Positions 4,461 to 54,485 of a DNA stretch of 64,000 nt are shown here, piece after piece (within the stretch, counting starts at the first letter, position 1; each line of letters begins with the position of its first letter). The notes beneath the pieces were generated by a model. The model was not told the origin of the DNA. It saw only the letters and a program-made list of their open reading frames with translations, and searched no databases. The stretch spans positions 64,001-128,000 of IMG/VR virus record IMGVR_UViG_3300035099_000047. One strand, 5' to 3'. Made by a program: the position numbers and the translations under genes. The DNA comes from a virus.

Positions 4461-6155
4461 TTAGAACATGAGTACGTGATTAAACTGGAAAACCCAATCA
4501 CTCGACTTACTCAATGCTCCAAATGTTCTCCTCGCCACCAATGTGTTGTCTCCACACACCAATCCAGCCTCGCTGATAGCGAACCCATTAGCTTCCCCTT
4601 CCAAAATATAAGCAGTGATCAACACACTGGTTGTGCTTGGGAATTCAAACATAGTAATAGGTTTCACTAGCACTACAGTCTCCAATGCTGCATCATTCAC
4701 TGTAGGATTTACAGGTTCGCTAGGATCACCTGGTACATGGCCACCTGTGTTATGCACGAATACCCCAGCTGTCAACGCGAAATTGTGATATTTTTCCACT
4801 TCCAAACAGTACACATCTTCCACATAATCCAAGCGTTTCACTGAAACCACAGTGTGGTTATAAAAAGCTAAAGCTTCACTGGTTGGAGAGGAATGGACCA
4901 TTTTGCCAATTGATTTCAAATACCGAGATCCTTCATCCCATTGAGTGACCGGATCGAACCCATTTTCTATCAGCAGCTTTCTAGCAACAGCAATTTTTCC
5001 CACCATCTGCTTCCGGCGGGAGTCATTGTCTGAATTCACAAACAGAATGGTCTTTTTAGCAGCCATTCTGCTAGCTTTTGATTTACCCCGATTCATGTGG
5101 AAATTGGGATCTTTATTCAGTCTGGTCATCGTCAAAGAGGACCTTTTAGACCGTATCATCCTGGCGTTACGCGCTTGTGGGTTGTCAGAATTGTTAATCC
5201 ACTCGTTGTAATCTGAGATATTTTTAACACTAATTTCTTTCATTTTATCATAGTTTTCACTCCAACTTTTCAAGTTGCGAGCAGTAAGAATGCTGGAGGC
5301 ATTGTTCCTATGGAACGCCCTGTGAAAACACCTAAACAAAACGGTCAAATTCGTAGGATCGTTGTTCCTGTGGTCAAAGTTTTTGTGGTGCACCACAAGT
5401 TTGCAACCTTCACAACCATCGACATGGTTAGAAGTGCATCTAGCTCCCAATTCATGAACCACCATCCAATGAGTAGTCAACCATTTCATGGTTGCGGGAG
5501 ACAAAAAGACTTCGTACCCTTTGTTATCTTCCCTATACAACGGCATGAGACTGTCACCTGGGGACAGTGACTCTGCATTTTTATAAAAACCATCCCTCAT
5601 CATCCACGGGTGGTTTAACGTGCATCGAACCACCTTAATGTTCCCTAGATAATCTCGAATCGTGACTTCCACTAAATTAGCACCCTTTTGAGTTAAAAAA
5701 GGTCTTTTGGCTTTACCAGGCACGACTCTACCTCGTTTTACATCATAGGAATACACCCAAAACTCGTCGCGATAGTTTAGGAGTTCCTCAAAAGACCTCT
5801 CTGTACCATCCAACAATGATACTTTTGTATCTTTGGTAAAGCAACCAAAAGCCATTCGGCTCACGAACTTGGTTGCAGTGCTATCCCCCACAACTAAGTG
5901 ACTCAGTTGCGTCTTGAGCCGAGTCAAGGCCAAGTTGTTGCCTTTGTAAACTCGTTCAATTTTGCCATCTGGCACCTCAACTCGAACCCTCTCCAATTGC
6001 CCGGTTTCAGCATTGATACGAGTGACTTGTTGAGGCCGGTACGATCCTGCCCGTCGCACCAATATGGTTTGTTCACCATGGACTTCACTCACTACGGACT
6101 TGGTAAACATGGGATTGCTCCTTATTACAGATTGGTTAGCTTGTTGTTTGGTCAA
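4461..6155 (-). CDS. Tail-collar/tail-fibre proximal-type protein interrupted by an intein (spliced product ~199 aa)
   Basis: Exteins join as MAFG|TGG...DAALE...EANGFAISEAGL...LVARRTF, typical of the phage tail-collar fibre N-terminal domain. Confidence 0.7.
   Translation of the reverse strand: MTKQQANQSVIRSNPMFTKSVVSEVHGEQTILVRRAGSYRPQQVTRINAETGQLERVRVEVPDGKIERVYKGNNLALTRLKTQLSHLVVGDSTATKFVSRMAFGCFTKDTKVSLLDGTERSFEELLNYRDEFWVYSYDVKRGRVVPGKAKRPFLTQKGANLVEVTIRDYLGNIKVVRCTLNHPWMMRDGFYKNAESLSPGDSLMPLYREDNKGYEVFLSPATMKWLTTHWMVVHELGARCTSNHVDGCEGCKLVVHHKNFDHRNNDPTNLTVLFRCFHRAFHRNNASSILTARNLKSWSENYDKMKEISVKNISDYNEWINNSDNPQARNARMIRSKRSSLTMTRLNKDPNFHMNRGKSKASRMAAKKTILFVNSDNDSRRKQMVGKIAVARKLLIENGFDPVTQWDEGSRYLKSIGKMVHSSPTSEALAFYNHTVVSVKRLDYVEDVYCLEVEKYHNFALTAGVFVHNTGGHVPGDPSEPVNPTVNDAALETVVLVKPITMFEFPSTTSVLITAYILEGEANGFAISEAGLVCGDNTLVARRTFGALSKSSDWVFQFNHVLMF
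4749..5843 (-). mobile_element. Intein (365 aa) with HNH homing endonuclease
   Basis: CFTKDTKVSLLDG...CTLNHPW...VHHKNFDHRNNDPTNL...HNFALTAGVFVHN/T. Confidence 0.93.
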
Positions 6156-19508: not shown

Positions 19509-21518
19509 CTAGTCACTAAGCAGATCTACTATAAAAGTCCCCGGTACGACCAACTGGTTCTTTTCTACTGGTATGTCCCCAGCCACCACGCTCAGCAACT
19601 GCGTATAGTTGGTGGCAATGCTAGTTTCAGCACTAGGGGCATTGGTAAACGTAAACTCATAGGCTCCGGTTTCATAATCAATCACAGCCACCTTGGTATC
19701 ATCTTTATTTCCAACCAAACGACCATGACCGTCATCTGTTACCACTTGAACTCCATCAGTAAAAGCCACAGTGTTTTTGATCAACGGAGGGTAAGTGAGT
19801 TTGCCCGTGAAGGTGCGGGTAATGCCATTAGTCGTAGCAATATCAGTTTCATTGCGTAGGTACTGCAATGGGTAGCGGTACTCAATTTTAATCTCAGCAT
19901 TCAGTGGTACCGCTTCTCTCAAGGTGAAATTCAAATCCCCAGTGGCATAATCCACCGTGTTCTCAGCCGTAGGATCCACATCCCCAATCAAACGCCCATC
20001 TCCGTTGTCTGTAATCACCAAAGTGTCAGCCTTAATGGTAATGCTACTAGGGCGGGGCACTTGCTGAGTGGTGTAATCAAACTGAGTAGTATGTCCGTCT
20101 GACAATCCAATCAATTCAGTTTTCTTGTAGGTAGCGGTCACAAGCCGTACCAAACTGTGCTCCACCCCGCTAGAGGCCTGTATAGTGCTGTAAAGCTTGC
20201 TCATGCGTACAGCCGTGCCAGGCTGATTACTTGGGTTGTTTAACAACGCCGTTAGGGCATAGTTGACATTGGTCAAAGTTTCGCTATTGCTTAGAAGGCC
20301 GTTTGGCACCACCCCTACATCCAGATCCAAGTACACTATGTTACCGTCCAACACATCCACATCTACGGTAATGATACGCACTGCTCCAGTGCCGTTGTTG
20401 TTAAAATAGGCAGATACTGCGTTTTTCAAGCCTTCGCTGGGAGGTACTATGTTACCCAATTCATTTCGTGCCCACAAGTATAAGTCTACAAGGTTGCTCT
20501 CTGGTACATTTTGATGAAGTTGTGCCTTGGCGTGAGACGGAGCACCGTAAATGGGATCTTTGAAGGTAGAAGCCAAGGTATCAAAATCAGATTCTGTAAC
20601 TGCGCGGCCGTTGGCCACCACCGATTTCGGGGCCCAAAACTTAGCGTGGTCAATTGTTTCTTTTTCTTCACCACCGCTACCACGTTCATTGTTGTACAGA
20701 GCCACGTCTACTGTTTGAATTGGCATGGTACCACTCAAGTTACCTGGTACCGATACATCAATATCCCCAATAGGCACATTGCCAACCACTCCGCCTCCTA
20801 TACGATAACTACATGAAATGGTAGCATTCTTGGTAGGTATTTGACCGCTGGTGCCGTCCCCAAATTTCACGTATCCATAGTCATCCACATCGGTGCGTAC
20901 ACTGTAACTTTGGTCCACTCCACTGCTGTAAACCAACGATTCTACTTCGTCCCAAGCGAAGCCATCTACAGTTACACTCAAGCTACCATCAATCAACGGA
21001 GTGCTGGAGAGCTTGAACTCTTGAAATGCGGTACCATCGCTAGTGAATTCATCAGTAACAGTTAGCCCTTGGACAAAAGTAAGATCCGCTGTCAAGTGAC
21101 CAGCCGGTATGGTTTGGTCCGTTAGACTTTCAAACTTGACTCCCGTTACACTGCTGATTTCCGTGTGTGCAGGTATCACGGTGTCATAGGTTTGAATAGA
21201 TGGAAGAGTAGCCGTGAGAAGGACTGAGGCGCTAGTAGCTGGCCGAAGGTTATACCCTATGAGCCTGCAGAGCAAAATCACACTTTCTCGATCTTTGGCT
21301 GTAGGGAGGAATTGTTCGTTGCAATAAGTGTCTATCATGAAGGAAAGGGAATCAAACGTAAATGCAACTAGCTCCATTAGGCAGGTCCCAATTGAGCTTT
21401 CAGTAAAGTCTTTCCATGTATTGGGAAACCTGGCCCGAATGTTGGCCTGAAGCGCAGCAAGTATCGTGGAATAGTCTTGATTTGTATAGTCTATTGCAGG
21501 AGTAGTGGTCATCCTCAC
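19509..21518 (-). CDS. Baseplate wedge protein (T4 gp6 / P2 gpJ-like)
   Basis: IDYTNQDY...WKDFTESSIG...FLPTA...FGDGTSGQIP...GGEEKETID...RAVTESDF. Confidence 0.92.
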   Translation of the reverse strand: MRMTTTPAIDYTNQDYSTILAALQANIRARFPNTWKDFTESSIGTCLMELVAFTFDSLSFMIDTYCNEQFLPTAKDRESVILLCRLIGYNLRPATSASVLLTATLPSIQTYDTVIPAHTEISSVTGVKFESLTDQTIPAGHLTADLTFVQGLTVTDEFTSDGTAFQEFKLSSTPLIDGSLSVTVDGFAWDEVESLVYSSGVDQSYSVRTDVDDYGYVKFGDGTSGQIPTKNATISCSYRIGGGVVGNVPIGDIDVSVPGNLSGTMPIQTVDVALYNNERGSGGEEKETIDHAKFWAPKSVVANGRAVTESDFDTLASTFKDPIYGAPSHAKAQLHQNVPESNLVDLYLWARNELGNIVPPSEGLKNAVSAYFNNNGTGAVRIITVDVDVLDGNIVYLDLDVGVVPNGLLSNSETLTNVNYALTALLNNPSNQPGTAVRMSKLYSTIQASSGVEHSLVRLVTATYKKTELIGLSDGHTTQFDYTTQQVPRPSSITIKADTLVITDNGDGRLIGDVDPTAENTVDYATGDLNFTLREAVPLNAEIKIEYRYPLQYLRNETDIATTNGITRTFTGKLTYPPLIKNTVAFTDGVQVVTDDGHGRLVGNKDDTKVAVIDYETGAYEFTFTNAPSAETSIATNYTQLLSVVAGDIPVEKNQLVVPGTFIVDLLSD

Positions 21519-24586: not shown

Positions 24587-25190
24587 AGCTAGTACACGTC
24601 ACCCTTTCTGATAAGAACTTAATATCAGCCAATCCAGATTCTCCATATTCCCCAAAATGGCGACGGAACCCTAAGTTGACGTCTACTACAGTAGGTAAGC
24701 CGTATTGGTCTCCGCAACCCCCCCTAAAAGTTACCGTTGAACTAACAAAATACCCCCAAGCACTCCACCAGTATCCTACAACAGGTCCTTTCAATCCCAC
24801 AGCACATAGAGGGGAAGAGCTGAAACGGCTACTAAGCCAACGAGGTTTAGCTAAATTTGACAACCCTTCAGCCACGCTCTTAATGGCTGCTCCATCCTCC
24901 AACGTATATCCATTAAAATAGCAACCACAAAACAGCGTGATGGGAAACTCATAATCATCGAATTGACCACTCTTAAAATTGAAACCCCGAGGGTGGGGGT
25001 TTAACTCGGTGGTACCTGCCATGGCCTCCAATTCCAACTTATACGTTTCTGCAAACTCTTCAGCCAACTTTCCAGACACCACCAAGTCAAAATAACGGTA
25101 GCCTGGGCTCAATGCAGGCATGCTGGCATCCAACATAATAATCAAGTGGCTAGCCTTTGCAGGGATGTCAGTCTTATAATCGGCCATCAA
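24567..25190 (-). CDS. Putative tail tube initiator (gp48/gp54-like)
   Basis: Position between tape measure and gp53-like gene. Confidence 0.5.
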   Translation of the reverse strand: MMADYKTDIPAKASHLIIMLDASMPALSPGYRYFDLVVSGKLAEEFAETYKLELEAMAGTTELNPHPRGFNFKSGQFDDYEFPITLFCGCYFNGYTLEDGAAIKSVAEGLSNLAKPRWLSSRFSSSPLCAVGLKGPVVGYWWSAWGYFVSSTVTFRGGCGDQYGLPTVVDVNLGFRRHFGEYGESGLADIKFLSERVTCTSYVFSRG

Positions 25191-28100
25191 ATGGTTCCAA
25201 ATTGGCTGAGTTTTTCCAGATCACTAACATCCAAGTCCTTAGCTTGCTTAAATGTCCGATCAGCGAAGTCAATCAAGGCTGCAGTTTGATTGGTAATGGC
25301 ATCTACAATGGGTTGAGCAAATTTGGTAGACTTCATAATGGTATCCAAATCGACATCTACTGTTACATCAGGCAATTCCGGGGCCAACAGACTTCGGATA
25401 GGTTGAGGGATCAACGGCATTAAGGGAACAAACATCTGCTGGATGCATTCAGCCAAATAGTCCTTCTGTCCAAAAATACCCTCGCTGAATGCACTTACAA
25501 AATTAACACCGGCTTCTGCCAGTTGACTTAATGGGCCCTTCAAGGCATCCGAATGAGGCAAATAATCATCTGCCGTTTGGGCTATTGTTTCTGTTGCTTT
25601 AGCTACTTGATCTTGTTGATTGATTTCGCCTTCAGCAAACGCACTAACTACGGCCTCCCCGCTCTTTTTACCCTCTTGTACAACCTCATCCTCAACATTG
25701 ATACCCAATATCCACCTTATTGGCTTGGGTATCTTGTGAATCAAACGCTTCACCCATTCCCATACAGCCCCCAAACTATTCTTGAAACCTTCCCACAAAG
25801 CATAAAAGGCGTTCCCTATAGCTTCAATGCCAGCCAAGAATGATTTTTTGAGTTCTTCCCAATGCTGAACCACATATTTGATGGCCAGTATCGCCCAACC
25901 CAATGGACCCATTGCTATTAGTAGCGCAGTCTTGATCTTGCTGGAACCACTCCAAATCCAAGTAAACAACTTCGTAAAAAACCAGATCAGGCCCTTGATC
26001 ATTAGCACCGGCCAAGTCAAAGGCGCAAACATGAATTTGATTGCCTTGCCTATGAAAGAGCTACCTTCCGACATCCAACTCTTCAATCTTTCCCAGACCT
26101 TCTTCAAACTTTGAACCGCTAGTATCGCCCAACCCAATGGACCCATAGCTATTAACAATGCCGTTCTAACTTTGCCGGAACCACTCCAAATCCAATTCCA
26201 CAAGAACACTATGCCTCTCCACAGCAACTTGACCCCCTCTATAACCAAGAATATTGGGGCAAGGGCTATTTTGAAAACAAATATGAAAACCTTTCCCAAC
26301 CATAGCAGCGCTGGAATGACTCCGGGACTACCCCCCACAATGGCTTTGATCAAACGGTAAATACCATATGTCAAGGCCACAACAGCTATGACTATCCAAG
26401 TTATCGGGTTCGCCCACAGTGCAGCGTTAAAAGCCCATGACGCTCCAGTCAAAATCCATTCCCATATAGCAGCCCCCTTGATATTTGTGGTTAAAAGGGG
26501 TAGCACTATGGACCCCATAAACATCAATATAGTAGCAACCTTGTCAAGTATTCCAGATTGATCACCAAATACAGCGCTGAGTCCCAGTGCCACAGAGCCT
26601 ACGAGGGACATAGCTTTGCTCAGCCTACCAGCTGCCATGGTATCTGCTATTTTAGCTCCTGTACTTGCAGCTATTGCAGAAGCTTCATGCCTCTTTTGCC
26701 TCTCAAGCAACTTGCTAGAAGACCAGTGTCTCAACTGGGCAAAATGGTTCTTGATCCACTCCCATTTTTCCAACACCAACATTTCCCACACCCGTTTCAG
26801 TGACCGCACTAAATCGTTGTGTATAAACGAGGCAAACCCTTTCCTGATTCTCAAATTTTTGATATAAAGCCACGTACTTTGCCTTATCATATTGTTATCA
26901 TGAGCCCATTTAGCAGCGGAAACTATCAACCCTCGTATTAGCTGCCATTGGGTTTGAATGAGATGAGCTAAAGCTCCATAAGCCTTCACTCCCAAATGCC
27001 ATGTATACCGTATTAACAAAGGCAACAACAATACTCCTAACACCCAACCCAAAACTTTCAAAACTACATTCAACCAACTCAACCTTTTACCTATTATTGA
27101 TAACACTTGACCCAGCTTACCAGACCCTGGTATGAAACTTCCCGTCAAGATATTGGCTATCCCCTCGAATAAACCACTAACCGGAGCCAAAACGAACTCT
27201 ACCGATTCTATGGCTTTGGCCAAAAGGTTTACCACGGGAAGCAGAGCGGTTAAAACCACCTTGAATAAAGGGACTAATAACAACACTATCCTACCTATCA
27301 CTGCTGCCATATCCATCAAGGCTGGCTGAACTGATGCAAACAAAGTCAAAAAGGCTTGTTGAATAGGCCAAATGGCTACCTTGATAAAATAATGCAACAT
27401 CTGCAAAAGGGGCTCAAAAATTTGAGTAATAGCCGAAGTGACTATTTTAACTGTGTCTCCAAGGGCATCACCTATTGCAATGACAAGCGCATCCAACGCT
27501 CTTTCCCCCATGCCACCCCCTTTGCCAAAAATCCTGCTGAACATACCACTGGTTGCCTTGCCCTGCTTTTCTAATTCCTTAGCCAACTCAGGCAAGAAAC
27601 CTTTTTTAGCAGCATTGATCATAAGGTCACTGAGTGCCTTCTTAAATTCAGGGGTACCGGGAGCAACCTTGTTTAGGCTTTTACTATACTCCTTCAACCA
27701 GAACTTCAAGAACTTCGGATTAGTTAGGTTCTTGAAAAAAGACAAGGGTAATGATGGGTCTTTAGAGAAAGCAACAAACACTTTCTGCAGCGACTTTTCA
27801 ATCTCTCCAAGATTAGGTTCCTTTTCCAAGTGTTTCCAAACCTTGCGCAAGATGGGGATACTAGAATGCTCAAACGCTATTGCAAAATCCTTCCCTGTTT
27901 TACCCATCAAATCCGTAAAGGCTTTGGCCCGTTTAGCTTCCTCTGCCAACCTTGCAAACTCAAATATAGGTTGGATGTCCACCTTGCCTGCATAAGACAA
28001 AGTACCAAATAATTCTTTATGAAACTTCTGAATGAATTTTGGATCGAAATTTTCGGTTAGCTTCTTTATGGCATCGGATGCTCCAGGGATAGCAGCTTCC

Positions 28101-28306
28101 GCTGCCCCAGCCATTTCGATCATAGCATCAGAGTAGTCCTTTGATTGAATTGTACCCTGCTGAAATTTAGTGCCAAGCTCATCAACTACATCTTGAATTG
28201 CTTTTTGATACCGTACAAAAGCGGTCTGGTCCTGAGCAAACTTCTCAGCCAGATCAGACTCCAAACCTATTTGCCAACTGATTATTCGATCAGTGGGGGT
28301 GGGCAT
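25187..28306 (-). CDS. Tape measure protein
   Basis: 1039 aa, helical, ALWANPITWIVIAV, Trp-periodic repeats, LPHSDALKGPLSQL. Confidence 0.9.
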   Translation of the reverse strand: MPTPTDRIISWQIGLESDLAEKFAQDQTAFVRYQKAIQDVVDELGTKFQQGTIQSKDYSDAMIEMAGAAEAAIPGASDAIKKLTENFDPKFIQKFHKELFGTLSYAGKVDIQPIFEFARLAEEAKRAKAFTDLMGKTGKDFAIAFEHSSIPILRKVWKHLEKEPNLGEIEKSLQKVFVAFSKDPSLPLSFFKNLTNPKFLKFWLKEYSKSLNKVAPGTPEFKKALSDLMINAAKKGFLPELAKELEKQGKATSGMFSRIFGKGGGMGERALDALVIAIGDALGDTVKIVTSAITQIFEPLLQMLHYFIKVAIWPIQQAFLTLFASVQPALMDMAAVIGRIVLLLVPLFKVVLTALLPVVNLLAKAIESVEFVLAPVSGLFEGIANILTGSFIPGSGKLGQVLSIIGKRLSWLNVVLKVLGWVLGVLLLPLLIRYTWHLGVKAYGALAHLIQTQWQLIRGLIVSAAKWAHDNNMIRQSTWLYIKNLRIRKGFASFIHNDLVRSLKRVWEMLVLEKWEWIKNHFAQLRHWSSSKLLERQKRHEASAIAASTGAKIADTMAAGRLSKAMSLVGSVALGLSAVFGDQSGILDKVATILMFMGSIVLPLLTTNIKGAAIWEWILTGASWAFNAALWANPITWIVIAVVALTYGIYRLIKAIVGGSPGVIPALLWLGKVFIFVFKIALAPIFLVIEGVKLLWRGIVFLWNWIWSGSGKVRTALLIAMGPLGWAILAVQSLKKVWERLKSWMSEGSSFIGKAIKFMFAPLTWPVLMIKGLIWFFTKLFTWIWSGSSKIKTALLIAMGPLGWAILAIKYVVQHWEELKKSFLAGIEAIGNAFYALWEGFKNSLGAVWEWVKRLIHKIPKPIRWILGINVEDEVVQEGKKSGEAVVSAFAEGEINQQDQVAKATETIAQTADDYLPHSDALKGPLSQLAEAGVNFVSAFSEGIFGQKDYLAECIQQMFVPLMPLIPQPIRSLLAPELPDVTVDVDLDTIMKSTKFAQPIVDAITNQTAALIDFADRTFKQAKDLDVSDLEKLSQFGTI

Positions 28307-31910: not shown

Positions 31911-33449
31911 TCAGACAACGTACTCAGTGAAGTTGGCTCCCTGCGGAGTCAACACAAACGTTAGCTGAATGATGCGGTCAGGCTTAATAGGCTTGAGCAC
32001 TATACGCCCGGCGCAAATGCCTTGTTCGATGATGTCATCCGTGTTGGTAGTTGCATCCATCACCACCAAGGAGTCGCGCAGACCTTCGCGGGCTTGGACA
32101 CTCTTTAAGTACGGCTCAACCATGTTCTTGAACCGAGTCCACAATCGCCAATCGTTCTGCTCAAACAACAAATACATACTGCTGGTAGCTATCATCTTGC
32201 GCAGATAGGTGAGCATACGTCGAACGGGCTCTAAGTTCAATGCTGTAGCCGCTCGCTGCAGAGTGAGGCAGTCGAAGCGCTTGATGCCTTGACCCGAGAA
32301 CTTCACAAACGGGTTAATGGCATTGAATCCACCTGTGCCCGACCGGCCACACAGTTGAGTACGTTCACCTTGATTGGGGCTGTACTCAATGTCCAACGCC
32401 CCCACCAAGTTGCCCCGGCGGAATCCAGATGTAGCAAACCAAACCTCATAGTTGGCATCGCTAGCAGCCATCAATCCCGCCACCCAACCACTGGGTGGGG
32501 TCCAAATGTTAGCATCCGTCCAGGAGTCATAAGTCTGGACCCAAGGCCAAGTCAGCGATCCATAACTGCTATCCAAAGCACTGGTGGGATCGTCCGCTCC
32601 CCCTCCCAATCCATTGTGCCATTTAATGATGCCATCGACATCCAATCCATAAGGAGGGTCGATCAACACCATACAATCCTGACGGTCCTCAGCTATGCCT
32701 AGCAGTTCAGCAATCACTCCTTTCCTGGAATCTCCAGGCACCGCTAGCAGATTCAAGTCATACTCCTCAGCATTGGAGAACAACTGCAAGCCGGTCTTGG
32801 TTGTGCCTACCACACTACCAATCACATCACTTTCAGTGACGTTCTCTCCGTCATCCCCTCCAGCAAAGTACACAGTGCCATTAGTTAGGGCTCCGCTATG
32901 GTTCAAAGTTATAGCTGTAACATAAGCACTGTTTGCCATGCGGGTATCAATCAAATCCGGATCATCGGCAGTCAAGACTACTGCATCATAAGTTTCCTGC
33001 AAATAGCCACGCCAATACACCCGGATTTTGTACCCTCGCACATTGCTAGTGGCTACAACCACCTGAAGACCATTGCTACCGCTGGCCCAAGTCCCTGGCG
33101 AGGTAGGTTCAAAGGTGATGACCGCGTGATCTGGAGGTTCCACCACAGTGTTTGGATTACTACTTTGTTGAGCCGTAGCGCAACTGTAACTACCCACTCG
33201 CACCACCGTCAACTGGTTGCCTTGGTGCAAGTATTGACGAGCAGCGTGCAACCCAATGTGGGTCGGGCTTGGTATTCCAAATGTGTTGATCAGTTGGTCT
33301 TCCGAACCTATTAGCTGGCGAGTGTCCAACGGACCCTTGCTGGCCGTGGTCACTATGCCAAACTGAGTGGTGGCCAGTGCAGGGATGTACTGACTCATGT
33401 CCCTTTCTGAAGTGTACACCCCTGGAGCAACAAAAGCACCTATACCCAT
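31911..33449 (-). CDS. Tail sheath protein (gp18-like)
   Basis: APGVYTSERD...KGP...WPW...PPSG...INP...VRR...FEQND. Confidence 0.95.
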   Translation of the reverse strand: MGIGAFVAPGVYTSERDMSQYIPALATTQFGIVTTASKGPLDTRQLIGSEDQLINTFGIPSPTHIGLHAARQYLHQGNQLTVVRVGSYSCATAQQSSNPNTVVEPPDHAVITFEPTSPGTWASGSNGLQVVVATSNVRGYKIRVYWRGYLQETYDAVVLTADDPDLIDTRMANSAYVTAITLNHSGALTNGTVYFAGGDDGENVTESDVIGSVVGTTKTGLQLFSNAEEYDLNLLAVPGDSRKGVIAELLGIAEDRQDCMVLIDPPYGLDVDGIIKWHNGLGGGADDPTSALDSSYGSLTWPWVQTYDSWTDANIWTPPSGWVAGLMAASDANYEVWFATSGFRRGNLVGALDIEYSPNQGERTQLCGRSGTGGFNAINPFVKFSGQGIKRFDCLTLQRAATALNLEPVRRMLTYLRKMIATSSMYLLFEQNDWRLWTRFKNMVEPYLKSVQAREGLRDSLVVMDATTNTDDIIEQGICAGRIVLKPIKPDRIIQLTFVLTPQGANFTEYVV

Positions 33450-33568
33450 TTGAGTGACCCTTTCGGTCAAAAGGGGTTCAAATGTGGTTCATATACACCC
33501 CACATCCCAGGCCCCCTAAATTGGCCTGTTCCGGTTTCCCGCAACCAGCTTCACAAACCGGCTGCGTC

Positions 33569-39684: not shown

Positions 39685-40029
39685 TTAAGGTCGATTGTTC
39701 ACCTTTTTTAGCCACCCAGCAGCATCAGATACTACAAGTGGATTCCAACTTCCCCAATTCATCAAATGTCCAAACAACAGATGGTGACCGTACTGCTCAC
39801 ACAACGTAATCAAATTGCTTTCTACCAATTCCAACTTTGGAAACAAGTAATAAGGCTTGATGTGGTGGACATTCAAACCTATCTTACCACCACAAGCTGC
39901 ACAAGTAGGATGAACCTTCAGGAAAGACTCTCGCACTGCAGGCCAATGTGGCGATCTAACTACACCACAGACCATTGGAGGGGACGTGATAGGAACTACA
40001 AACTCATCCACTCCCATGTTCAATATCAT
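39685..40029 (-). CDS. Free-standing HNH endonuclease
   Basis: RSPHWPAVR...CAACG...VHHIKP...NLITLC...HHLLFGH. Confidence 0.85.
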   Translation of the reverse strand: MILNMGVDEFVVPITSPPMVCGVVRSPHWPAVRESFLKVHPTCAACGGKIGLNVHHIKPYYLFPKLELVESNLITLCEQYGHHLLFGHLMNWGSWNPLVVSDAAGWLKKVNNRP

Positions 40030-42848: not shown

Positions 42849-45125
42849 TCAACCCTCGATTGCAGCCAGAGTGAATGGGTACGACTTGAGGTAGGCTTCG
42901 ATTTTAGTTAGCATTGCATCTCCACGAGTGCGCATTGCTTCAACGTCCATTTGAACCGGACCAGTGGGGCCTGGTATCTCGTTGCCGAACGTGCCAAGTA
43001 TATCAGCCAAGGTAAGCCTACAGTAAGCTTCCACTGTATCCAGAAAACGGCTTTGGAGGGTTTGGGGAAGAGTGGTAATGGTGTGTTGGTATGATAAAAT
43101 GTAATTTATGTGGTAAGGTGACGCCGGATGCCACAACACAAGCCATTTCTTCTCCGGATCAAAAATCCAATCAGGTTCAAGACTCCTGGCCCGGAGTACT
43201 GATTTTCTTTGTGCTAGTAACTCCGGCAGGGTGGTATTGTGCACAAATACTCCAGAAGATACTGCAAAATTATGATACTCCGGAACTGTCAAATCATACA
43301 CATCTTCATAACCAACAAATTCGACTGACACAACCTTGTGATTGGTTGGTTGGAATTGGTTTATTCCATGGGTTCTTATCATATGGGTCTTATACCCTCG
43401 GCCCTTCTTACACTTTTTACCACAACGGAAACAAATCTGATATTCTACCTTACCATGAGAATTTTGTTTGTGACGTTTCAATCCTGCTTCACTATTGCAA
43501 ACTGTTCCACAAATGTCGCAGATAGTTTCTTTGTGCCCCACATGAACTGTGCGGTGATGCCTCTGTAATCCCATTTCATTTTTGCAAACTTTACCACAAA
43601 TTTCGCAGGTTGCTGGTGTGTGCTCTCCATGAGCACTTTTCATGTGAACCACCAACGAACCCTTGTTCTCACAATCCCTACTGCAAATTGGACAAATCAC
43701 GGGCTCGGGGTCGCCGTGATACCTCTTTTTGTGTTGGGCTAAATGTCCAACATTAAAACAAATTTCCCCACAAATGTCACAAACGGCTGGAGTGGTGGCT
43801 AACTTCCTGGCGTTCTCCACACACCAAGCTTTGTACTTTTCATCCTCTCGGTGTCGCCTTTTCATTCTATCCTTGAAAAGCTGTACATTATTTGGGTCGT
43901 CCCAAAACTCGTCTCTCCCTTTTGCTATATTTAACTGAAAGATCGGATCTTTGTGCCGTTCTACCATCCTTTTGGATTGTCGTTCCCGACCTCCCTCTTC
44001 GTCCCAATATCTACGACCCCCTTCACTACGGGCCTTAACGAATTCCGAATCCTGACACAGCTTGGTCATGACTTCGGAGTTGACAGTAGCCATTTTGGCT
44101 ACGTACTCTGGATCGGACCAAAGCTTGGCCATGTGCTCCACCGCAAACTGAGAATGAAACTGCAAATGATCCTCATAAACCATCCATACCAAATTGTCTG
44201 GGCGATTGTTTCGCTTGTTAAAATCCAAGTGGTGGCGTATGCTACCTCTAATCCCTCCATGGAATACCAACTTGTTATTCTCATCTACAGTAGCCGACCT
44301 GTTTACGAATTCGGCTACTCGCTTGTGAGTGAATTCCCACTTGTTTGCAGTGGGGTCGAGGAATTCTTCGTAACCATCGCAGTATCCATTTTCTTGCTTG
44401 GCAGACATCCTGCGGTACAAAGGCATCAAGCTATCGCCTGGTTGTAAGTCCTTAGTTGCTTTGTATTCTCTATTTTTCATCAGCCACAAGTGATCAGGTG
44501 TAACTTTTTCGGACATTCCATTGTCCAGAATCACCTTGAACACAGGCACATTGATCCCGCTTCTGAAAGGTTTCCCTGCCTTGCCTGGCACTATCTTTCG
44601 TCTCTGATGATCGTAACTGTAAAGCCAGATTTGGCCTGCATAATCAAATAGTTCCTCAATTGTCCGCTCGGTACCATCTAGCAAAGGGATCTTTGTGTCT
44701 TTAGTCAAACATTGGGGGGTTCCCGGGCCTATACGATTTGCAGAAATTGTACCAGTTGTAAACGGAGAAGAGGTCAACAAACGTGATGTTAAATTGAAAA
44801 TTGAAATATCGATAATAGGACTGTAATCTTTTGGGGGTAGGAATTCTACATCTGCAACTCCAAGCAAACCCTCTTCTGCACTTAGATCAATATAGCTACT
44901 TTCTGTTTGCAAACTTATTTCTCCACTAGGGCTCCCCACATAAGCATATCGGCGTTCCTTCCGGTTCACGTACTGATTGAACAAGTCCAATGCCCGATCA
45001 ATAGCTTCTTGGTAATGGTCAATGTTTTCCCCACTACCACCGCTTTGCACCAGGGCCAAACACCGAGCCCCATAGCCCAGTCGAACCTTAATTTTCTGTG
45101 CAATTTGCCCAGCAGTTAGATTCAT
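42849..45125 (-). CDS. Neck / head-tail adaptor protein (gp13-like) interrupted by an intein (spliced ~266 aa)
   Basis: IKVRLG...AIDRAL...IPGPTGPVQMDVEAMRTRG; position between capsid and tail genes. Confidence 0.75.
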   Translation of the reverse strand: MNLTAGQIAQKIKVRLGYGARCLALVQSGGSGENIDHYQEAIDRALDLFNQYVNRKERRYAYVGSPSGEISLQTESSYIDLSAEEGLLGVADVEFLPPKDYSPIIDISIFNLTSRLLTSSPFTTGTISANRIGPGTPQCLTKDTKIPLLDGTERTIEELFDYAGQIWLYSYDHQRRKIVPGKAGKPFRSGINVPVFKVILDNGMSEKVTPDHLWLMKNREYKATKDLQPGDSLMPLYRRMSAKQENGYCDGYEEFLDPTANKWEFTHKRVAEFVNRSATVDENNKLVFHGGIRGSIRHHLDFNKRNNRPDNLVWMVYEDHLQFHSQFAVEHMAKLWSDPEYVAKMATVNSEVMTKLCQDSEFVKARSEGGRRYWDEEGGRERQSKRMVERHKDPIFQLNIAKGRDEFWDDPNNVQLFKDRMKRRHREDEKYKAWCVENARKLATTPAVCDICGEICFNVGHLAQHKKRYHGDPEPVICPICSRDCENKGSLVVHMKSAHGEHTPATCEICGKVCKNEMGLQRHHRTVHVGHKETICDICGTVCNSEAGLKRHKQNSHGKVEYQICFRCGKKCKKGRGYKTHMIRTHGINQFQPTNHKVVSVEFVGYEDVYDLTVPEYHNFAVSSGVFVHNTTLPELLAQRKSVLRARSLEPDWIFDPEKKWLVLWHPASPYHINYILSYQHTITTLPQTLQSRFLDTVEAYCRLTLADILGTFGNEIPGPTGPVQMDVEAMRTRGDAMLTKIEAYLKSYPFTLAAIEG
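43236..44711 (-). mobile_element. Intein (492 aa) with HNH endonuclease and five C2H2 zinc fingers
   Basis: CLTKDTKIPLLDG...VTPDHLW...RHHLDFNKRNNRPDNL...5x CxxC-x12-H-x4-H...HNFAVSSGVFVHN/T. Confidence 0.93.
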
Positions 45126-45126
45126 A

Positions 45127-46407
45127 TCAATCCAGTCTTTTCTTTGCCACATAAGTCTGATAACCCTCCCACAAACCTGGATCCGTTCTCAACAGCTTTT
45201 CGGCCTTTGGCCACCTTCCACCAATCACGTGGCTAGCATATAGATAGCTAAAATCGACCGTAGTAAGTATGGCCGGTTCCCCCAACCGGAACCGCTTGTT
45301 TCCCAAGGGACCCCTAGCATAACGGTAGGCCGCTTCCGGATCTTTGGCCATAGCAGGTTCCCCCATAGGAAACGGCCCATGAAGCGTCTCCGATGCATAC
45401 CCCAAGGCTATCTTAGCGTTCTTGGACATGGCTGGTTCACCAGCTGGGAATGGGCCAACGATCTCGGAGTAATCAAGAGAACTCTTACCGTTCCTGGCAA
45501 TTTCGGGCTCCATCTCAGGCCAACCCTCGGATCCTATGAATTTACGTATGTATTCTATTAAGTGCTCACTTTTAGCAATGGCCGGTTCCCCCAGTGGAAA
45601 TCGTCTGCCTAGCACTTCATGAGCATACCTATAGGCAGCATCACCATCCTTGGCAATGGCCTCTTCACCTTCAGGCCATTCCCCTCCCACTATTCGCTTA
45701 GCATAACCAAATGCCTGATCACCACTTGGGTTAGGTGGAGGGGTCAGCAAACGATTCAACAAAGGCCCAGGCTCCATAGGCTGGTCCTGTACGTCCATCA
45801 CTTGACTGTAATCAGGCGTGTATTGCATGAAAGGAACTCCGTCCTTCAACACAACGTAGATGGCTCCAAAATCCTCCAAATAGCTGCGAGCCCAACTAGA
45901 ATTAGCTCCACGAGTACACCACCTAGTGCCCTCCCCTAAAATCCCCAAGCTCCTTGGATCAGTAACACGCAAGGTGATATAAGGGCCGTCAACCTTATTC
46001 ACTTCAACCCCTTCTAATCCAGATATCTTGCTTGCCACCTCCGCAGGCACCCGCAGCACCTCTGGCCTTTCTTGTTGCACAGCCCGTTGCAAATCACCGA
46101 AAGTAGGGTAACGGTGAATATCACGATTCAACTGGCTAGAAGGCTTGCGTTTTAGTTCAGTGAAATGTTGCAAATACTCTTTGACTTTTTCCGCGTCTTC
46201 AGGCAGAATGACTTGATGAGTTACCCATTGCCTCAAAATCCAACTGTCGTATTGTTTATCAGGTGTTGGATCTGCATCGTCAACCAACCGAGTAATGGTA
46301 CCCACCGGCAAATCCAATACCCTGTGCGCTTTCTCCAACTGACTAGACTGTATGCCTTCTTGGAGCATTTGCCGAACCAAACGCGGGTATGGGATTCTAT
46401 AGGTCAT
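45127..46407 (-). CDS. Putative internal protein: GTxWCT domain plus ~23-aa helical repeats
   Basis: DPTPDKQYDSWI...GEGTRWCT...; repeats YA..(V/L)..(W/F)P.GEPA(I/M)AK. Confidence 0.75.
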   Translation of the reverse strand: MTYRIPYPRLVRQMLQEGIQSSQLEKAHRVLDLPVGTITRLVDDADPTPDKQYDSWILRQWVTHQVILPEDAEKVKEYLQHFTELKRKPSSQLNRDIHRYPTFGDLQRAVQQERPEVLRVPAEVASKISGLEGVEVNKVDGPYITLRVTDPRSLGILGEGTRWCTRGANSSWARSYLEDFGAIYVVLKDGVPFMQYTPDYSQVMDVQDQPMEPGPLLNRLLTPPPNPSGDQAFGYAKRIVGGEWPEGEEAIAKDGDAAYRYAHEVLGRRFPLGEPAIAKSEHLIEYIRKFIGSEGWPEMEPEIARNGKSSLDYSEIVGPFPAGEPAMSKNAKIALGYASETLHGPFPMGEPAMAKDPEAAYRYARGPLGNKRFRLGEPAILTTVDFSYLYASHVIGGRWPKAEKLLRTDPGLWEGYQTYVAKKRLD

Positions 46408-46579
46408 GTTCGTTTCTCGCCGAGGCCCCATCTCTTGAAAAGTAAAGGGGAACGATTTCTTCTTCATTTTGAAGCATTTTTGCGGGAACCCCACCATAAG
46501 GGACCCTTTTTACCCACTCAGTCTCAAATGGGCTAGCAAGACTGAATCCGGAGGAATTCACCATCACGCTCATTTCTGA

Positions 46580-51400: not shown

Positions 51401-52840
51401 TTACACTAAGGTCCCAACAGCGTAGAACCTGTTGTTGATGACTTTTTGTGCTGAACGTGTCAAAAGTCCACGGCGGCTCACAAAGTCATCCAACGTGATG
51501 GTGGGCGTGCTGATCAATCCCTGATACACAGCATGCACATAGCCAGTATCCAGGAAGTTGCCTCCCTTGCCACCCATCAGCCACTCATTGGTTGGATACG
51601 CCGAATCCTTGTAAACCTCCCAATCTCCAAGGGTTCCAACCTTCCTAATACCTGCCACCCCACTCACAGGCGGACTCTTAACAAACGCAGGCACCAAGGT
51701 CTCGACGATGTTGGCCACATTCATGCCCACCACCAACCAGGAACCTTGCATCCGCTGAGTCTGTTGGAAAATCGTGTTCGACGTTTCAGTAAAAGCGTCG
51801 ATCAAGATTTCCTTGTGGTCCTTATAGCTGACACCAACCGGCGGAGTCGGATCAAACGTCACTGGGCTGGCTGCATTGTATGCAATAGCCCGCAGGTGCC
51901 GAATGATCTTTTCGTTGATCTCCTGGCTGATACGATTGGTGGCCAGCGTGACCAACTCCGTTTCGGCCACAATGCCGTGGACAGCCAGCAGATCCTGTTC
52001 GGCTTCAAGGCTCCACCTGAACCTTAGTTTATTCGGCCTAGTGACTACCGGGCTGGAGGTCAGCTGGATCTCCAATTCCGGAATCAAGTCACTTGCCTCC
52101 ATGTCATACTCATAGGTGGCTGTAACAGCGTCGCTATCACTATGACCTGCCGTGAATACCACAGCGTAAACACCTGTGGCATAGTTGACAGTATTGGTGT
52201 AAGTGGCATCTGGTGTGCCTACATTACCAATCAAATTCCCGTTGCCATCATCCGTGATGTGATAGGTTCCATCGGTGATATCCACTGTGCCTGGCCTTAC
52301 TGGGTAATAACTCAGTGTACCCTTAATTTTGTCGGTGCTAGTAACACCCAGAGCCTCATTCTCCACCACCTCATCAGTGTAGTGGTAACTGCGCTCCGGG
52401 CCAGCCTGGGCATCATAGATCTTAGTGCCCTTGGTGAGTGTACCCTTAGTACGGCCAGCCACGGCGTCCATGTAAAAGACTAGGCCGGTCGGGGCAGGCA
52501 GGGGCTGCACGCTGACCAAATCGGCAGCCACCAGGTTAGCAAACACCATGCGGATGATGGGGAACACGTATTTTTCATACGTACCCACTTGCAAGGTGCG
52601 GGTGGCTTCATCCAATCGGTCATAGTACCGCTTGGCATTTTCCAACAGAGTGGCCACCAATGCCCGACGATACGGGTCCTCAATACCTTCCATGAAGTTG
52701 ATGGAGCCTTCCTTGCCCCAATGACGCAGCCGATTGGCGGGCATATTGCCCCAGCTCTCGGCCAACACCTGTCCTCGATTCAACATGTCCTCCCAAGTTT
52801 CGTACATCGAGGACTCTTCAATTGCATGTCGATTACCCAT
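51401..52840 (-). CDS. Major capsid protein (T4 gp23-like)
   Basis: ATLLEN...FPIIR...LVSVQPLPAPTGLVFY...KLRFRWSLEAEQDL.A.HGI.AE.EL...EIN. Confidence 0.96.
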   Translation of the reverse strand: MGNRHAIEESSMYETWEDMLNRGQVLAESWGNMPANRLRHWGKEGSINFMEGIEDPYRRALVATLLENAKRYYDRLDEATRTLQVGTYEKYVFPIIRMVFANLVAADLVSVQPLPAPTGLVFYMDAVAGRTKGTLTKGTKIYDAQAGPERSYHYTDEVVENEALGVTSTDKIKGTLSYYPVRPGTVDITDGTYHITDDGNGNLIGNVGTPDATYTNTVNYATGVYAVVFTAGHSDSDAVTATYEYDMEASDLIPELEIQLTSSPVVTRPNKLRFRWSLEAEQDLLAVHGIVAETELVTLATNRISQEINEKIIRHLRAIAYNAASPVTFDPTPPVGVSYKDHKEILIDAFTETSNTIFQQTQRMQGSWLVVGMNVANIVETLVPAFVKSPPVSGVAGIRKVGTLGDWEVYKDSAYPTNEWLMGGKGGNFLDTGYVHAVYQGLISTPTITLDDFVSRRGLLTRSAQKVINNRFYAVGTLV

Positions 52841-52922
52841 GACTAAGATCTCCAACGAACGGTGCAGTTGATACCATGAGAGTTCGGTCAACGCAACCGA
52901 ACCCCGACCCAGAAAGAGCCCG

Positions 52923-54485
52923 TTACTTGACTTTTCTAACCAGGCTCTCCATCAAATTGGTCGGCTTGGCAACACCCGCACGGGCTGGTCTCGCTGAGGA
53001 GCCTCTGGCTTCAGTCAGCGGGGGCAGGTCGGAGGGGTAGTCCTTGCGACCACTCATAATCGGCTGGATGAAACCTTCAACCAGCTGTTTGACTTGCTTA
53101 ACCGTATGGCACTCACTCAATTGTTTCTCAATGGGCTTGAGAGCAGGGGCGTGGTTCATTAACGACTCCACGTATTGGGCCACCTGTTCACCTCGGTATC
53201 GCTTTACAGTGGCTTCTAACAGCTTCAAGCTGGCCTCAGCCCGCTTAAAAGCTTCAGCCAATTGACCCCTGAGCTGTTTAATAGTGCGCTCGGCCATTCG
53301 CTTGTTGGCCCTGCTCTTGGTCACCAGTGTCTCACCCAACTGAATGGCCACGTGATACCTTTCCTGCAGTGATCGGTCGCGGCGGTAGGCGCGCTCCATC
53401 ACCCGAGCAGCTGCATCATCAGTTGGGGTGATGTCTTCCTTTTTCTCTTTTTCCTTTTTGGCTTTTTCCTCAGCCGCAATGCATTCCTCAGCTTCACGCA
53501 TCCGGCGAATAGCTCGTGTGATTTCTTCTCCACGATTGGTCAGCTGACCCCGCAAGTGGGCCACATCCGAACTAAACTCACTTTCGGTAATGGAGCCCAA
53601 CCCGGCCAACGTGTCATTGACCTTTTGAGCGTGCTCCAATAGCCCTTCCAATGTGATGTCCTTACCTCCCAGGTATTGACCTGAACTCTCCACAACCACT
53701 CGGGCCCGCGCAGTGCGGTCCGAAGACTCTTTCAATTGAACCGGTGTAGTCATTGTCTTGTTCTCCAAAATGGGTACCAGAAATATCCTCGATCCGTTGT
53801 TGGTTTGTAGGCTTTCCACAGGGCGAGTTGTTGCTCCCATTACGCTTGGGATGTAAACGTGATCAAACGTGTCTAACACATAGTCGCTAGCCTCTACGAT
53901 TTCGTCTCCGTTCTCGTTACGAGTGCTACCAGAACCTCGGCTACTCACCGCAACAGGCACTCCAACGTCAAAATACTCCCTCAAAATTTGACCAGCTGGA
54001 GTATTGAAAATCAGATGGGTCACATAAATCTTACCATCCTTGCGTTGAACATCTTCTACCAAGTGGCTTAGCCCCAAGTTGTTATGTCCGTGCAACTTGG
54101 TGTTGCCACTTTCAGGGTGCTCCAACTCCCCCAACACACTACGTTCCCGCAACCTGCGACGAAAGGTTCCATCCTCAGACAACACCCGATCCCACAAGGT
54201 TGAGGGATAAATGCGGCCATTCTGATTCTTGAGATTTTCCACTTGGCCTGGACCCGTCACCCGCAGCCGTTTGTTATGGCTCAATAGCTCTTGCAGGATC
54301 TGATCCTTGCTACCCCGCCAGTGTTCAATCAGCTGTTCATTTTTCTCCTGCTCCAACAGCCGATTAAATTCCTCCCAACGGGGCATCAACACACTTTCCT
54401 TCAAACCCTCCGAAGTGACCCACTCCTTTTGCCACTGGTCTGGGGGTACTGTCATTGTTTCTATTAGCAATTTTCGTTCAGCCAT
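52923..54485 (-). CDS. Prohead protease (gp21-like) fused to a coiled-coil scaffold domain
   Basis: NQNGRIYP...LGELEHP...SH...TPAG...VSSRGSGS...FDHVYIPS. Confidence 0.93.
   Translation of the reverse strand: MAERKLLIETMTVPPDQWQKEWVTSEGLKESVLMPRWEEFNRLLEQEKNEQLIEHWRGSKDQILQELLSHNKRLRVTGPGQVENLKNQNGRIYPSTLWDRVLSEDGTFRRRLRERSVLGELEHPESGNTKLHGHNNLGLSHLVEDVQRKDGKIYVTHLIFNTPAGQILREYFDVGVPVAVSSRGSGSTRNENGDEIVEASDYVLDTFDHVYIPSVMGATTRPVESLQTNNGSRIFLVPILENKTMTTPVQLKESSDRTARARVVVESSGQYLGGKDITLEGLLEHAQKVNDTLAGLGSITESEFSSDVAHLRGQLTNRGEEITRAIRRMREAEECIAAEEKAKKEKEKKEDITPTDDAAARVMERAYRRDRSLQERYHVAIQLGETLVTKSRANKRMAERTIKQLRGQLAEAFKRAEASLKLLEATVKRYRGEQVAQYVESLMNHAPALKPIEKQLSECHTVKQVKQLVEGFIQPIMSGRKDYPSDLPPLTEARGSSARPARAGVAKPTNLMESLVRKVK

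What the first reader, a model, noticed from the sequence alone, without database searches (positions are those of the whole stretch)
43236..44711. Natural zinc-finger nuclease: intein HNH endonuclease with five tandem C2H2 fingers
Seen at 43368-43781: CDICGEICFNVGHLAQHKKRYH, CPICSRDCENKGSLVVHMKSAH, CEICGKVCKNEMGLQRHHRTVH, CDICGTVCNSEAGLKRHKQNSH and CFRCGKKCKKGRGYKTHMIRTH. Each is C-x2-C-x12-H-x4-H, joined by 7-residue linkers (same spacing as eukaryotic TGEKPYx), with Cys at the usual Phe position. They lie C-terminal to an HNH motif and short helical repeats. Established: tandem C2H2 arrays are typical of eukaryotes and rare in prokaryotes. The sister intein at 4749-5843 has the HNH but no fingers. 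Inference: a modular DNA-recognition array targets the intein-less neck gene.
Basis: partly seen in the sequence, partly recalled or inferred. Interest (0 to 1): 0.85.

Follow-up and report, generated by a model that had tools for sequence, protein, structure and literature searches.

The report
Phage intein nuclease with five zinc fingers
A self-splicing element (intein) in the neck-protein gene of an uncultured T4-like phage encodes an HNH DNA-cutting enzyme joined to five classical C2H2 zinc fingers, a natural counterpart of engineered zinc-finger nucleases that I found in no other phage sequence searched; its activity is untested.

Summary
Window 43236-44711 (minus strand) is a 492-aa class-1 intein in a 767-aa gene. 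A 68%-identical homologue from a related phage lacks exactly these residues. The host protein is a T4 gp13-like neck protein.

The intein has four parts:
- a Hint splicing domain;
- an HNH motif invariant across 40 relatives;
- seven helices of W-DPEF-type repeats;
- five C2H2 fingers (C-x2-C-x12-H-x4-H, 29-aa period, 7-aa linkers, Cys at the Phe position).

Pfam zf-C2H2 scores above its cut-off. The array is predicted to fold as five beta-beta-alpha units. Its best sequence and fold matches are DNA-bound poly-finger proteins (Aart, PRDM9, CTCF).

About 200 inteins of the same family were sampled. Roughly ten carry one or two similar fingers at the same position, and none carries more. No deposited phage genome holds a similar array.

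Tandem arrays of the same geometry are common in giant viruses of eukaryotes. Some of those are fused to DUF559 or T5orf172 nuclease-type domains, so natural finger-plus-nuclease-domain proteins are not confined to this phage.

Most likely the fingers extend the DNA-binding arm of an active homing endonuclease that targets the intein-less gp13 allele. That function is inferred, not shown. Verdict: new variant of a known kind.

The parts
42849..45152 (-). gp13-like neck protein gene interrupted by the intein (767 aa). The true start is probably Met10, at window 45125.
   Evidence: ORF. The homologue P0130 starts at the residue aligned to Met10. gp13 assignment.
44712..45152 (-). N-extein (residues 1-147), ending ...NRIGPGTPQ
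   Evidence: 66-68% identity to the intein-less P0130.
43236..44711 (-). Whole intein (residues 148-639, 492 aa)
   Evidence: Pfam Intein_splicing 66.9 bits. Precisely absent from P0130. 907 homologues found.
44283..44711 (-). Hint N-terminal splicing region (Cys1; block B T71-x-x-H74 in intein numbering)
   Evidence: AF2 pLDDT 96-98. Foldseek matches to DnaE, DnaB and RecA inteins. Conserved residues.
44133..44255 (-). HNH nuclease motif (IRHHLDFNKRNNRPDNLVWMVYEDHLQFH). H307, H308, N316, N320, H329 and H333 of the protein are invariant in the family.
   Evidence: Pfam HNH_3 20 bits, sub-threshold. PHROG HNH endonuclease families, E = 7e-5. Invariant columns in 40 sequences. Marginal profile hit to I-HmuI 1U3E, E = 0.079.
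43797..44132 (-). Helical W-DPEF-type repeats between the HNH motif and the fingers
   Evidence: Seven predicted helices at intein residues 179-306, the first starting within the HNH motif; pLDDT about 58-90. Repeat number varies between homologues. Some homologues carry Pfam NUMOD3 PF07460.
43368..43781 (-). Five tandem C2H2 zinc fingers (residues 458-595)
   Evidence: AF2 with an array alignment gives five beta-beta-alpha units, mean pLDDT 82.7. Best PDB matches are Aart, PRDM9 and CTCF on DNA.
43236..43352 (-). Hint C-terminal splicing region (NHKVVSV ... VFVHN)
   Evidence: pLDDT 98. Invariant N457, H458, N481 and N492 in intein numbering.
42852..43235 (-). C-extein (residues 640-767), starting with Thr+1 (TTLPELLAQRK...)
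4749..5843 (-). Sister intein of the same family (36% identical), with HNH but no fingers, in ORF 4461..6155

Best explanation
This is a class-1 intein that carries a modular HNH homing endonuclease. Shown from sequence: after translation the Hint domain (Cys1, TxxH, terminal His-Asn, Thr+1) can excise the 492-aa intein and ligate the gp13-like neck protein. Inferred: in a mixed infection the free intein cuts or nicks the intein-less gp13 allele of a related phage near ...GGA ACC CCC CAA|ACC ACC CTG CCG.... Recombinational repair from the intein-bearing allele then copies the element in. Inferred: target recognition is split over an extended arm C-terminal to the HNH domain, as in I-HmuI and I-TevI-type enzymes. 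Here that arm has helical W-DPEF repeats followed by five C2H2 fingers, which could read up to about 15 bp in the major groove. A single finger just before Hint block F is an occasional module of this intein family. In this lineage it was expanded to five by old tandem duplications that have since diverged.
For: Intein: Pfam hit above cut-off; Hint fold at pLDDT 96-98 with Foldseek hits to solved inteins; the 68%-identical homologue P0130 lacks exactly residues 148-639. Nuclease: the HH..N..N..H..H motif is invariant in 40 family members; PHROG HNH families match; many homologues carry PF13392. Fingers: zf-C2H2 42.4 bits; five beta-beta-alpha units in the model; continuous five-finger alignments to DNA-bound Aart, PRDM9, CTCF, ZBTB24 and ZFP568. 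Maintenance: the fingers are only 28-41% identical in protein and 41-60% in DNA, yet all 20 zinc ligands and the helix Leu/Tyr are kept, which argues for selection on each finger. Family context: fingers with the same C-x2-CGK-x-[CF]-x-N-x-G-x-L-x2-H signature sit at the same position, 2-8 residues before block F, in P0018, P0117, P0060, P0081 and L156. The five fingers resemble these (mean 26% identity at non-ligand positions) more than giant-virus or eukaryote-type fingers (14-15%). The DNA-binding region is the variable part of the family.
Against: Nothing here shows splicing, zinc binding, DNA binding or cleavage. HNH_3 scores below Pfam's cut-off in this protein (20.0 against 24.8 bits). 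The linkers lack the TGEKP consensus. Helix position -1 is a conserved Asn in 7 of 9 family fingers, unlike the hypervariable contact positions of eukaryotic arrays, so the fingers may bind with low specificity or by a different code. A naive recognition-code scan of the reconstructed target did no better than background. Only one sequence with five fingers exists, so selection cannot be measured.
Confidence: 0.62

Rival explanations
1. The endonuclease is active, but the fingers do something other than choose the target. Possibilities are non-specific DNA clamping, RNA or protein binding, or a zinc-dependent brake on splicing.
For: Conserved Asn at helix position -1 and Gly at positions 2/3. 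No TGEKP linkers. No recognition-code match to the target. Single archaeal-virus C2H2 fingers bind DNA non-specifically (PMC3541406).
Against: The closest sequence and fold matches are sequence-specific DNA-bound arrays, aligned over all five fingers with compatible spacing. The position in the protein is that of the DNA-binding arm in this family. Helix positions 1, 3, 5 and 6 differ between the fingers.
Confidence: 0.2
2. The homing endonuclease is a decaying relic. The intein persists only because it splices, and the fingers have no present function.
For: Many inteins carry inactive endonucleases (established knowledge of the homing cycle). HNH_3 is sub-threshold. No close relatives exist to show ongoing mobility.
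Against: The reading frame is uninterrupted over 492 aa. All invariant HNH residues and all 20 zinc ligands are intact despite deep divergence between the fingers. An intein-less allele exists in a related phage, so targets are available.
Confidence: 0.13
3. On origin only: the array was captured recently as a block from a giant virus or a eukaryote, not grown inside the intein family.
For: The geometry is identical (H-x4-H, 7-aa linkers, frequent Cys at the Phe position) in at least 120 IMG/VR loci. The loci examined sit next to NCLDV capsid genes or on contigs named GVMAG. HMMER gives 30-35% identity to long poly-finger proteins.
Against: The fingers are nearer to the one- and two-finger modules of other phage inteins than to giant-virus fingers. 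GC and GC3 of the finger DNA (0.43, 0.39) lie within the range of the gene's other segments. The fingers are mutually diverged.
Confidence: 0.15

Closest known systems
HNH (HNH_3 / I-HmuI-type) homing endonucleases, free-standing, intron-encoded or in inteins, with modular NUMOD-type DNA-binding arms
   Same: An HNH catalytic motif sits N-terminal to an extended, repeat-built DNA-binding region. The mobile-element context is the same. The family of about 900 Hint+HNH inteins is spread over many phage genes.
   Different: Known members use NUMOD helices, helix-turn-helix or AP2 domains, or Cys4 zinc ribbons (own knowledge; zinc-ribbon HNH enzymes in PMC3592412). I found no paper describing a tandem classical C2H2 array in one.
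Engineered zinc-finger nucleases (C2H2 array fused to the FokI cleavage domain)
   Same: One polypeptide combines a tandem C2H2 array with a nuclease domain that has no sequence specificity of its own.
   Different: The nuclease is HNH, not FokI, and lies N-terminal to the fingers. There is an extra helical-repeat arm. The protein is probably monomeric. The fingers are H-x4-H type without TGEKP linkers. It is natural and embedded in an intein.
Eukaryote-type DNA-binding poly-C2H2 arrays (Aart 2I13, PRDM9 5V3G, CTCF 5T0U, ZBTB24 6ML4)
   Same: Same ligand pattern, beta-beta-alpha fold and 7-aa linkers. About 30% identity over five fingers.
   Different: H-x4-H instead of H-x3-H. Cys instead of Phe in the core. 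No aromatic residue before the first Cys. No TGEKP linker. Encoded by a bacteriophage.
Giant-virus C2H2 array proteins, including array+DUF559 and T5orf172+array fusions found here (L030, L060, L080, L025)
   Same: Same finger geometry and the same Cys variant at the Phe position. Some are fused to nuclease-type domains.
   Different: They are on eukaryotic-virus contigs. They have no intein and no HNH. Finger sequences are more distant.
Single C2H2 fingers of archaea and archaeal viruses (AFV1p06, PMC3541406)
   Same: A classical C2H2 fold outside eukaryotes.
   Different: Those occur as one copy (about 74%) or two copies (about 20%) in short proteins. Here there are five in tandem, fused to a nuclease.

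Membership tests
Class-1 intein (Hint domain) | Pfam Intein_splicing above the gathering score | tested here: met
   66.9 bits against a 35.8 cut-off.
Class-1 intein (Hint domain) | Splicing residues: Cys1, block B TxxH, terminal His-Asn, and a nucleophile at +1 | tested here: met
   C148, T218-P-D-H221, H638-N639 and T640.
Class-1 intein (Hint domain) | Precise in-frame insertion that is absent from a homologue of the host protein | tested here: met
   P0130 (263 aa, 68% identical) lacks exactly residues 148-639.
Class-1 intein (Hint domain) | Hint fold | tested here: met
   AF2 pLDDT 96-98. Foldseek matches DnaE, DnaB and RecA inteins at probability 1.00.
Class-1 intein (Hint domain) | Protein splicing activity | not testable with these tools
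   Needs expression of the precursor.
HNH endonuclease (Pfam HNH_3, I-HmuI-like) | Pfam HNH_3 gathering score | tested here: not met
   20.0 bits against 24.8. Many homologues carry PF13392 in the precomputed annotation.
HNH endonuclease (Pfam HNH_3, I-HmuI-like) | Conserved His / Asn / His-type catalytic and metal-binding residues | tested here: met
   H307, H308, N316, N320, H329 and H333 are invariant in 40 family members. PHROG HNH families match at E = 7e-5.
HNH endonuclease (Pfam HNH_3, I-HmuI-like) | Similarity to a solved HNH homing endonuclease | tested here: inconclusive
   The family profile hits I-HmuI 1U3E at E = 0.079 only.
Classical C2H2 zinc finger (Pfam zf-C2H2) | Gathering score and C-x2-4-C-x12-H-x3-5-H ligands | tested here: met
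   42.4 bits against 25.2. Five complete ligand sets.
Classical C2H2 zinc finger (Pfam zf-C2H2) | Beta-beta-alpha fold in each unit | tested here: met
   AF2 with alignment A4: mean pLDDT 82.7, five hairpin+helix units. Foldseek matches Aart, PRDM9 and CTCF. This is a prediction only.
Classical C2H2 zinc finger (Pfam zf-C2H2) | Conserved Phe in the core and a TGEKP-type linker (Krueppel-type subclass) | tested here: not met
   Cys at the Phe position in all five. The linkers are GDPEPVI, GEHTPAT, VGHKETI and GKVEYQI. Linker length (7 aa) is conserved.
Classical C2H2 zinc finger (Pfam zf-C2H2) | Zinc and sequence-specific DNA binding | not testable with these tools
   Needs metal analysis and EMSA or SELEX.
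Zinc-finger nuclease in the engineered sense (FokI fusion) | FokI cleavage domain that dimerises across a spacer | tested here: not met
   The nuclease is HNH-type and no FokI domain appears in the Pfam scan. It works like a ZFN but is not a member of that class.
T4 gp13 neck protein (PF26809) as host protein | Family model match | tested here: inconclusive
   The local Pfam copy gave no PF26809 match, even for P0002, which carries PF26809 in the precomputed annotation, so the model is probably absent from it. There is a precomputed weak PF26809 hit on the homologue P0130. 26 of 30 ESM Atlas hits are gp13 clusters, score 0.98. The gene lies between the capsid and sheath genes.

The most novel reading that the evidence does not exclude
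A bacteriophage mobile element uses a eukaryote-style modular C2H2 array as the specificity module of an HNH nuclease. That would make it a natural, probably monomeric zinc-finger nuclease or nickase, grown by finger duplication inside an intein family. Its target length and specificity could be altered by adding or swapping fingers. It would also show that poly-finger DNA recognition operates in the prokaryotic virosphere.
Probability: 0.5. Interest if true: 0.75.

Novelty: new variant of a known kind. Interest (0 to 1): 0.62.

Why it matters
Homing endonucleases are known to combine a few nuclease folds with a small set of DNA-binding modules. A tandem classical C2H2 array is not among those described. 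Such arrays are regarded as a eukaryotic device; archaeal and archaeal-virus proteins mostly have one or two fingers (PMC3541406). If the array sets the target, three things follow. Nature arrived at the zinc-finger-nuclease design independently of protein engineers. There would be a compact HNH-based scaffold to compare with FokI fusions. And an intein family with 0, 1, 2 or 5 fingers would offer a natural series for studying how finger number changes the specificity of a mobile element. The giant-virus fusions seen in passing suggest the design may be more widespread among viruses.

Tried and rejected
1. Close relatives of the host gene, wanted for a real intein-less DNA site or allelic inteins with other finger numbers, were not found. 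I tried IMG/VR by protein and by a degenerate junction pattern, GTDB genomes, and JGI metagenomes by pattern and by alignment. Only P0130 (NCBI/Logan) exists, and its DNA could not be fetched.

2. The HMMER search of 1.84 billion representatives with residues 290-639 was swamped by long poly-finger proteins. All 149 listed hits other than the query itself matched only the finger region. It therefore says nothing about other phage HNH-finger proteins.

3. The word-based search with the array alone found only eukaryote-like poly-finger proteins.

4. I derived a naive Zif268-type code, NNGGNNGNATNAAGA, from helix positions -1, 3 and 6. Its best match in the reconstructed target was 6 of 9 specified bases. 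Background 180-nt windows typically reach 6-7, so no site prediction is made.

5. The first AF2 model, built on an intein-only alignment, left the fingers at pLDDT 40-65. A second model with an array alignment resolved them.

6. The tblastn hit in LR756508.1 looked like an allelic intein. It is a 1386-aa ORF (not characterised further) with about three intein-like insertions, not a gp13-sized gene.

7. BLASTP of the exteins against the gp13-family protein P0002 was not significant. The gp13 link rests on P0130.
Full report
**What is there**

The minus-strand ORF 42849..45152 encodes 767 aa.

Pfam gives these scores:
- Intein_splicing 66.9 bits (cut-off 35.8);
- zf-C2H2 42.4 bits (25.2);
- zf-C2H2_4 37.6 bits (27);
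- HNH_3 20.0 bits, below its 24.8 cut-off.

Five C-x2-C-x12-H-x4-H units start at residues 458, 487, 516, 545 and 574. The period is exactly 29 aa. The linkers are 7 aa long: GDPEPVI, GEHTPAT, VGHKETI and GKVEYQI. Cys sits at the canonical Phe position in all five. They are the only zf-C2H2 matches in the source record.

**Source and host gene**

The window is bases 64001-128000 of a 172-kb IMG/VR virus record, estimated 78% complete. All large genes run on the minus strand. In order they are:
- head protease, 52923-54485;
- major head protein, 51401-52891;
- the gene studied here;
- tail sheath, 31911-33470;
- tape measure, 25187-28306;
- baseplate wedge, 19509-21518.

A word-based search with the N-extein found one relative, P0130. 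It is 263 aa and comes from a 194-kb NCBI contig and a 92-kb Logan contig. P0130 is 68% identical to both exteins and lacks exactly residues 148-639...NRIGPGTP(I)|TT(I)TELLAQRK. This is the strongest single proof that the insert is an intein, and it shows that intein-less alleles exist.

P0130 carries a weak precomputed hit to PF26809 Phage_T4_gp13. In the ESM Atlas, 26 of its 30 nearest clusters are 'T4 neck protein gp13', score 0.98. The real start codon is probably Met10 (window 45125), as in P0130.

**The intein family**

The intein has 907 relatives at E <= 0.001 in the 5.8-billion-cluster database. They are inserted in many different phage-type proteins, including caspase-like and papain-like peptidases, radical SAM enzymes, gp25, ThyX, gyrase and gp13. 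IMG/VR holds 422 more stretches.

Alignments show a common plan:
- a Hint N-terminal part;
- an HNH motif with H160, H161, N169, N173, H182 and H186 (intein numbering) invariant in 40 sequences;
- a variable number of helical W-DPEF-type repeats, which some homologues score as Pfam NUMOD3;
- Hint blocks F and G.

The AF2 model gives pLDDT 96-98 for the Hint domain and 71-93 for the HNH region. It shows seven helices across intein residues 179-306. Foldseek finds solved inteins. The family profile touches I-HmuI (1U3E) only marginally, at E = 0.079. The sister intein at 4749-5843 is 36% identical and has the HNH motif but no finger.

**The fingers**

With an alignment of arrays of the same geometry, the 151-aa segment folds as five hairpin-plus-helix units, mean pLDDT 82.7. 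By sequence the best PDB match is the designed six-finger protein Aart on DNA (E = 1.9e-17, one alignment through all five fingers). PRDM9, CTCF and ZBTB24 follow. Foldseek gives the same list over 141-152 aligned columns.

The five units are only 28-41% identical in protein and 41-60% in DNA. The duplications are therefore old. All 20 ligands and the helix Leu/Tyr survive, which argues that each finger is under selection. The GC content of the finger DNA is unremarkable.

**How unusual it is**

Among the 119 other listed homologues, about eight have finger-like motifs, and at most two each. In P0018, P0117, P0060, P0081 and P0091 a motif sits 2-8 residues before block F. Among 78 further IMG/VR inteins of the family, only L156/L157 (two fingers) and L141 (two C2HC-like motifs) have any.

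These intein fingers share a signature, C-x2-CGK-x-[CF]-x-N-x-G-x-L-x2-H-x-K-x2-H. The five fingers here resemble them more than giant-virus or eukaryote-type H-x4-H fingers: 26% against 14-15% mean identity at non-ligand positions. The likeliest history is therefore expansion of a resident single finger.

No similar array exists in 50,697 deposited phage genomes (tblastn). I found no paper that describes C2H2 fingers in an intein or homing endonuclease. A paper on an archaeal-virus finger states that archaeal and archaeal-virus C2H2 proteins have one finger (about 74%) or two (about 20%) (PMC3541406).

**A necessary qualification**

I scanned IMG/VR with a DNA pattern for two fingers of exactly this geometry.
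- Sixty-five encode small four-finger proteins. In the two loci examined, one lies about 4 kb from an NCLDV major capsid gene.
- Thirteen have 3-9 fingers. At least three of them (L030, L060, L080) also carry a C-terminal DUF559/Vsr-like domain. DUF559 reaches Pfam's score in L030 only; the shared motif is seen in L060 and L080.
- Twelve have 4-6 fingers. The full-length members examined combine a T5orf172/MUG113 domain with six fingers, and some also have repeated N-terminal modules that may be KilA-N-like.
- None has a Hint or HNH domain.

Tandem C2H2 arrays, and even array-plus-nuclease-domain proteins, are thus frequent in giant viruses of eukaryotes. Multi-copy C2H2 families are reported there (PMC11788076 and PMC13712841). 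The Cys at the Phe position is shared with many of those fingers. The rarity claim holds for phages and prokaryotes only.

**Mechanism**

Shown from sequence: there is an intact splicing apparatus, an intact HNH motif and an intact five-finger array in one reading frame, and an intein-less allele exists in a related phage.

Inferred: the excised intein acts as a homing endonuclease on the intein-less gp13 allele. The helical repeats and the fingers would form the extended DNA-binding arm. Five fingers could add up to about 15 bp of major-groove contacts.

Several points weaken this inference:
- the HNH_3 score is sub-threshold;
- the linkers are not TGEKP-like;
- Asn at helix position -1 is conserved rather than variable;
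- a naive recognition-code scan of the target did no better than background.

I put 0.62 on the targeting role. I put 0.20 on another role for the fingers and 0.13 on a decayed endonuclease.

**Verdict**

This is a real and well-defined feature. It is a new variant of a known kind: an HNH intein homing endonuclease with an unprecedented C2H2-array module. It is interesting mainly as a natural analogue of zinc-finger nucleases in a phage. Its function remains to be tested.

The earlier scan notes on this genome gave only context, namely that it is a T4-like sediment phage. None concerned this feature.

Noticed in passing
L030:1597-2535 (-), L060:1737-2945 (+), L080:1137-2315 (-): Contigs that look like giant-virus contigs (low GC) encode proteins with 5, 9 and 8 tandem C2H2 fingers followed by a DUF559/Vsr-like domain (motif RYDF...IEFDGRQHF). 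These are natural array-plus-nuclease-type-domain fusions. DUF559 reaches Pfam's score in L030 only.
   Followed up: partly
L025:152-1879 (-), L109:826-3096 (-), L055:4627-6726 (+): Giant-virus proteins combine a T5orf172/MUG113 (GIY-YIG-like) domain with a C-terminal six-finger array (L025). L055 combines Bro-N, DUF559, KilA-N and fingers.
   Followed up: partly
L016, L019, L053 and about 60 other loci: A large family of 152-259-aa proteins with 2-4 C2H2 fingers. In the two loci examined, one (L053) has an NCLDV major capsid gene about 4 kb away and both have RNB-domain genes nearby.
   Followed up: partly
P0002, P0008, P0015, P0020, P0074, P0083: gp13-family neck proteins are an intein hot spot. 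The same HNH intein family is inserted at two or more sites, after ...DPIAPLML and after ...DIFGY(K/R)Y. P0002 carries a second intein. None of these has fingers.
   Followed up: partly
window 6165-8705 (-), and contig 168-171 kb outside the window: The phage is intein-rich. The radical SAM gene holds two Intein_splicing matches, and another 831-aa frame near the contig end holds several.
   Followed up: no
window 39685-40029 (-): A 114-aa free-standing ORF with an HNH-like motif (CAACGG...HHIKP...H..LFGH), a possible separate homing or packaging HNH endonuclease.
   Followed up: no
window 45127-46497 (-): The 456-aa gene just upstream of gp13 contains about six repeats of roughly 30 aa, each with a GEPA(I/M)(A/S)K motif. 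It has no PHROG match.
   Followed up: no
L213:812-4972 (+) (LR756508.1, a 484-kb uncultured phage): A 1386-aa ORF interrupted by about three intein-like insertions, one of them of the same HNH family. It was not scanned against any family library.
   Followed up: partly
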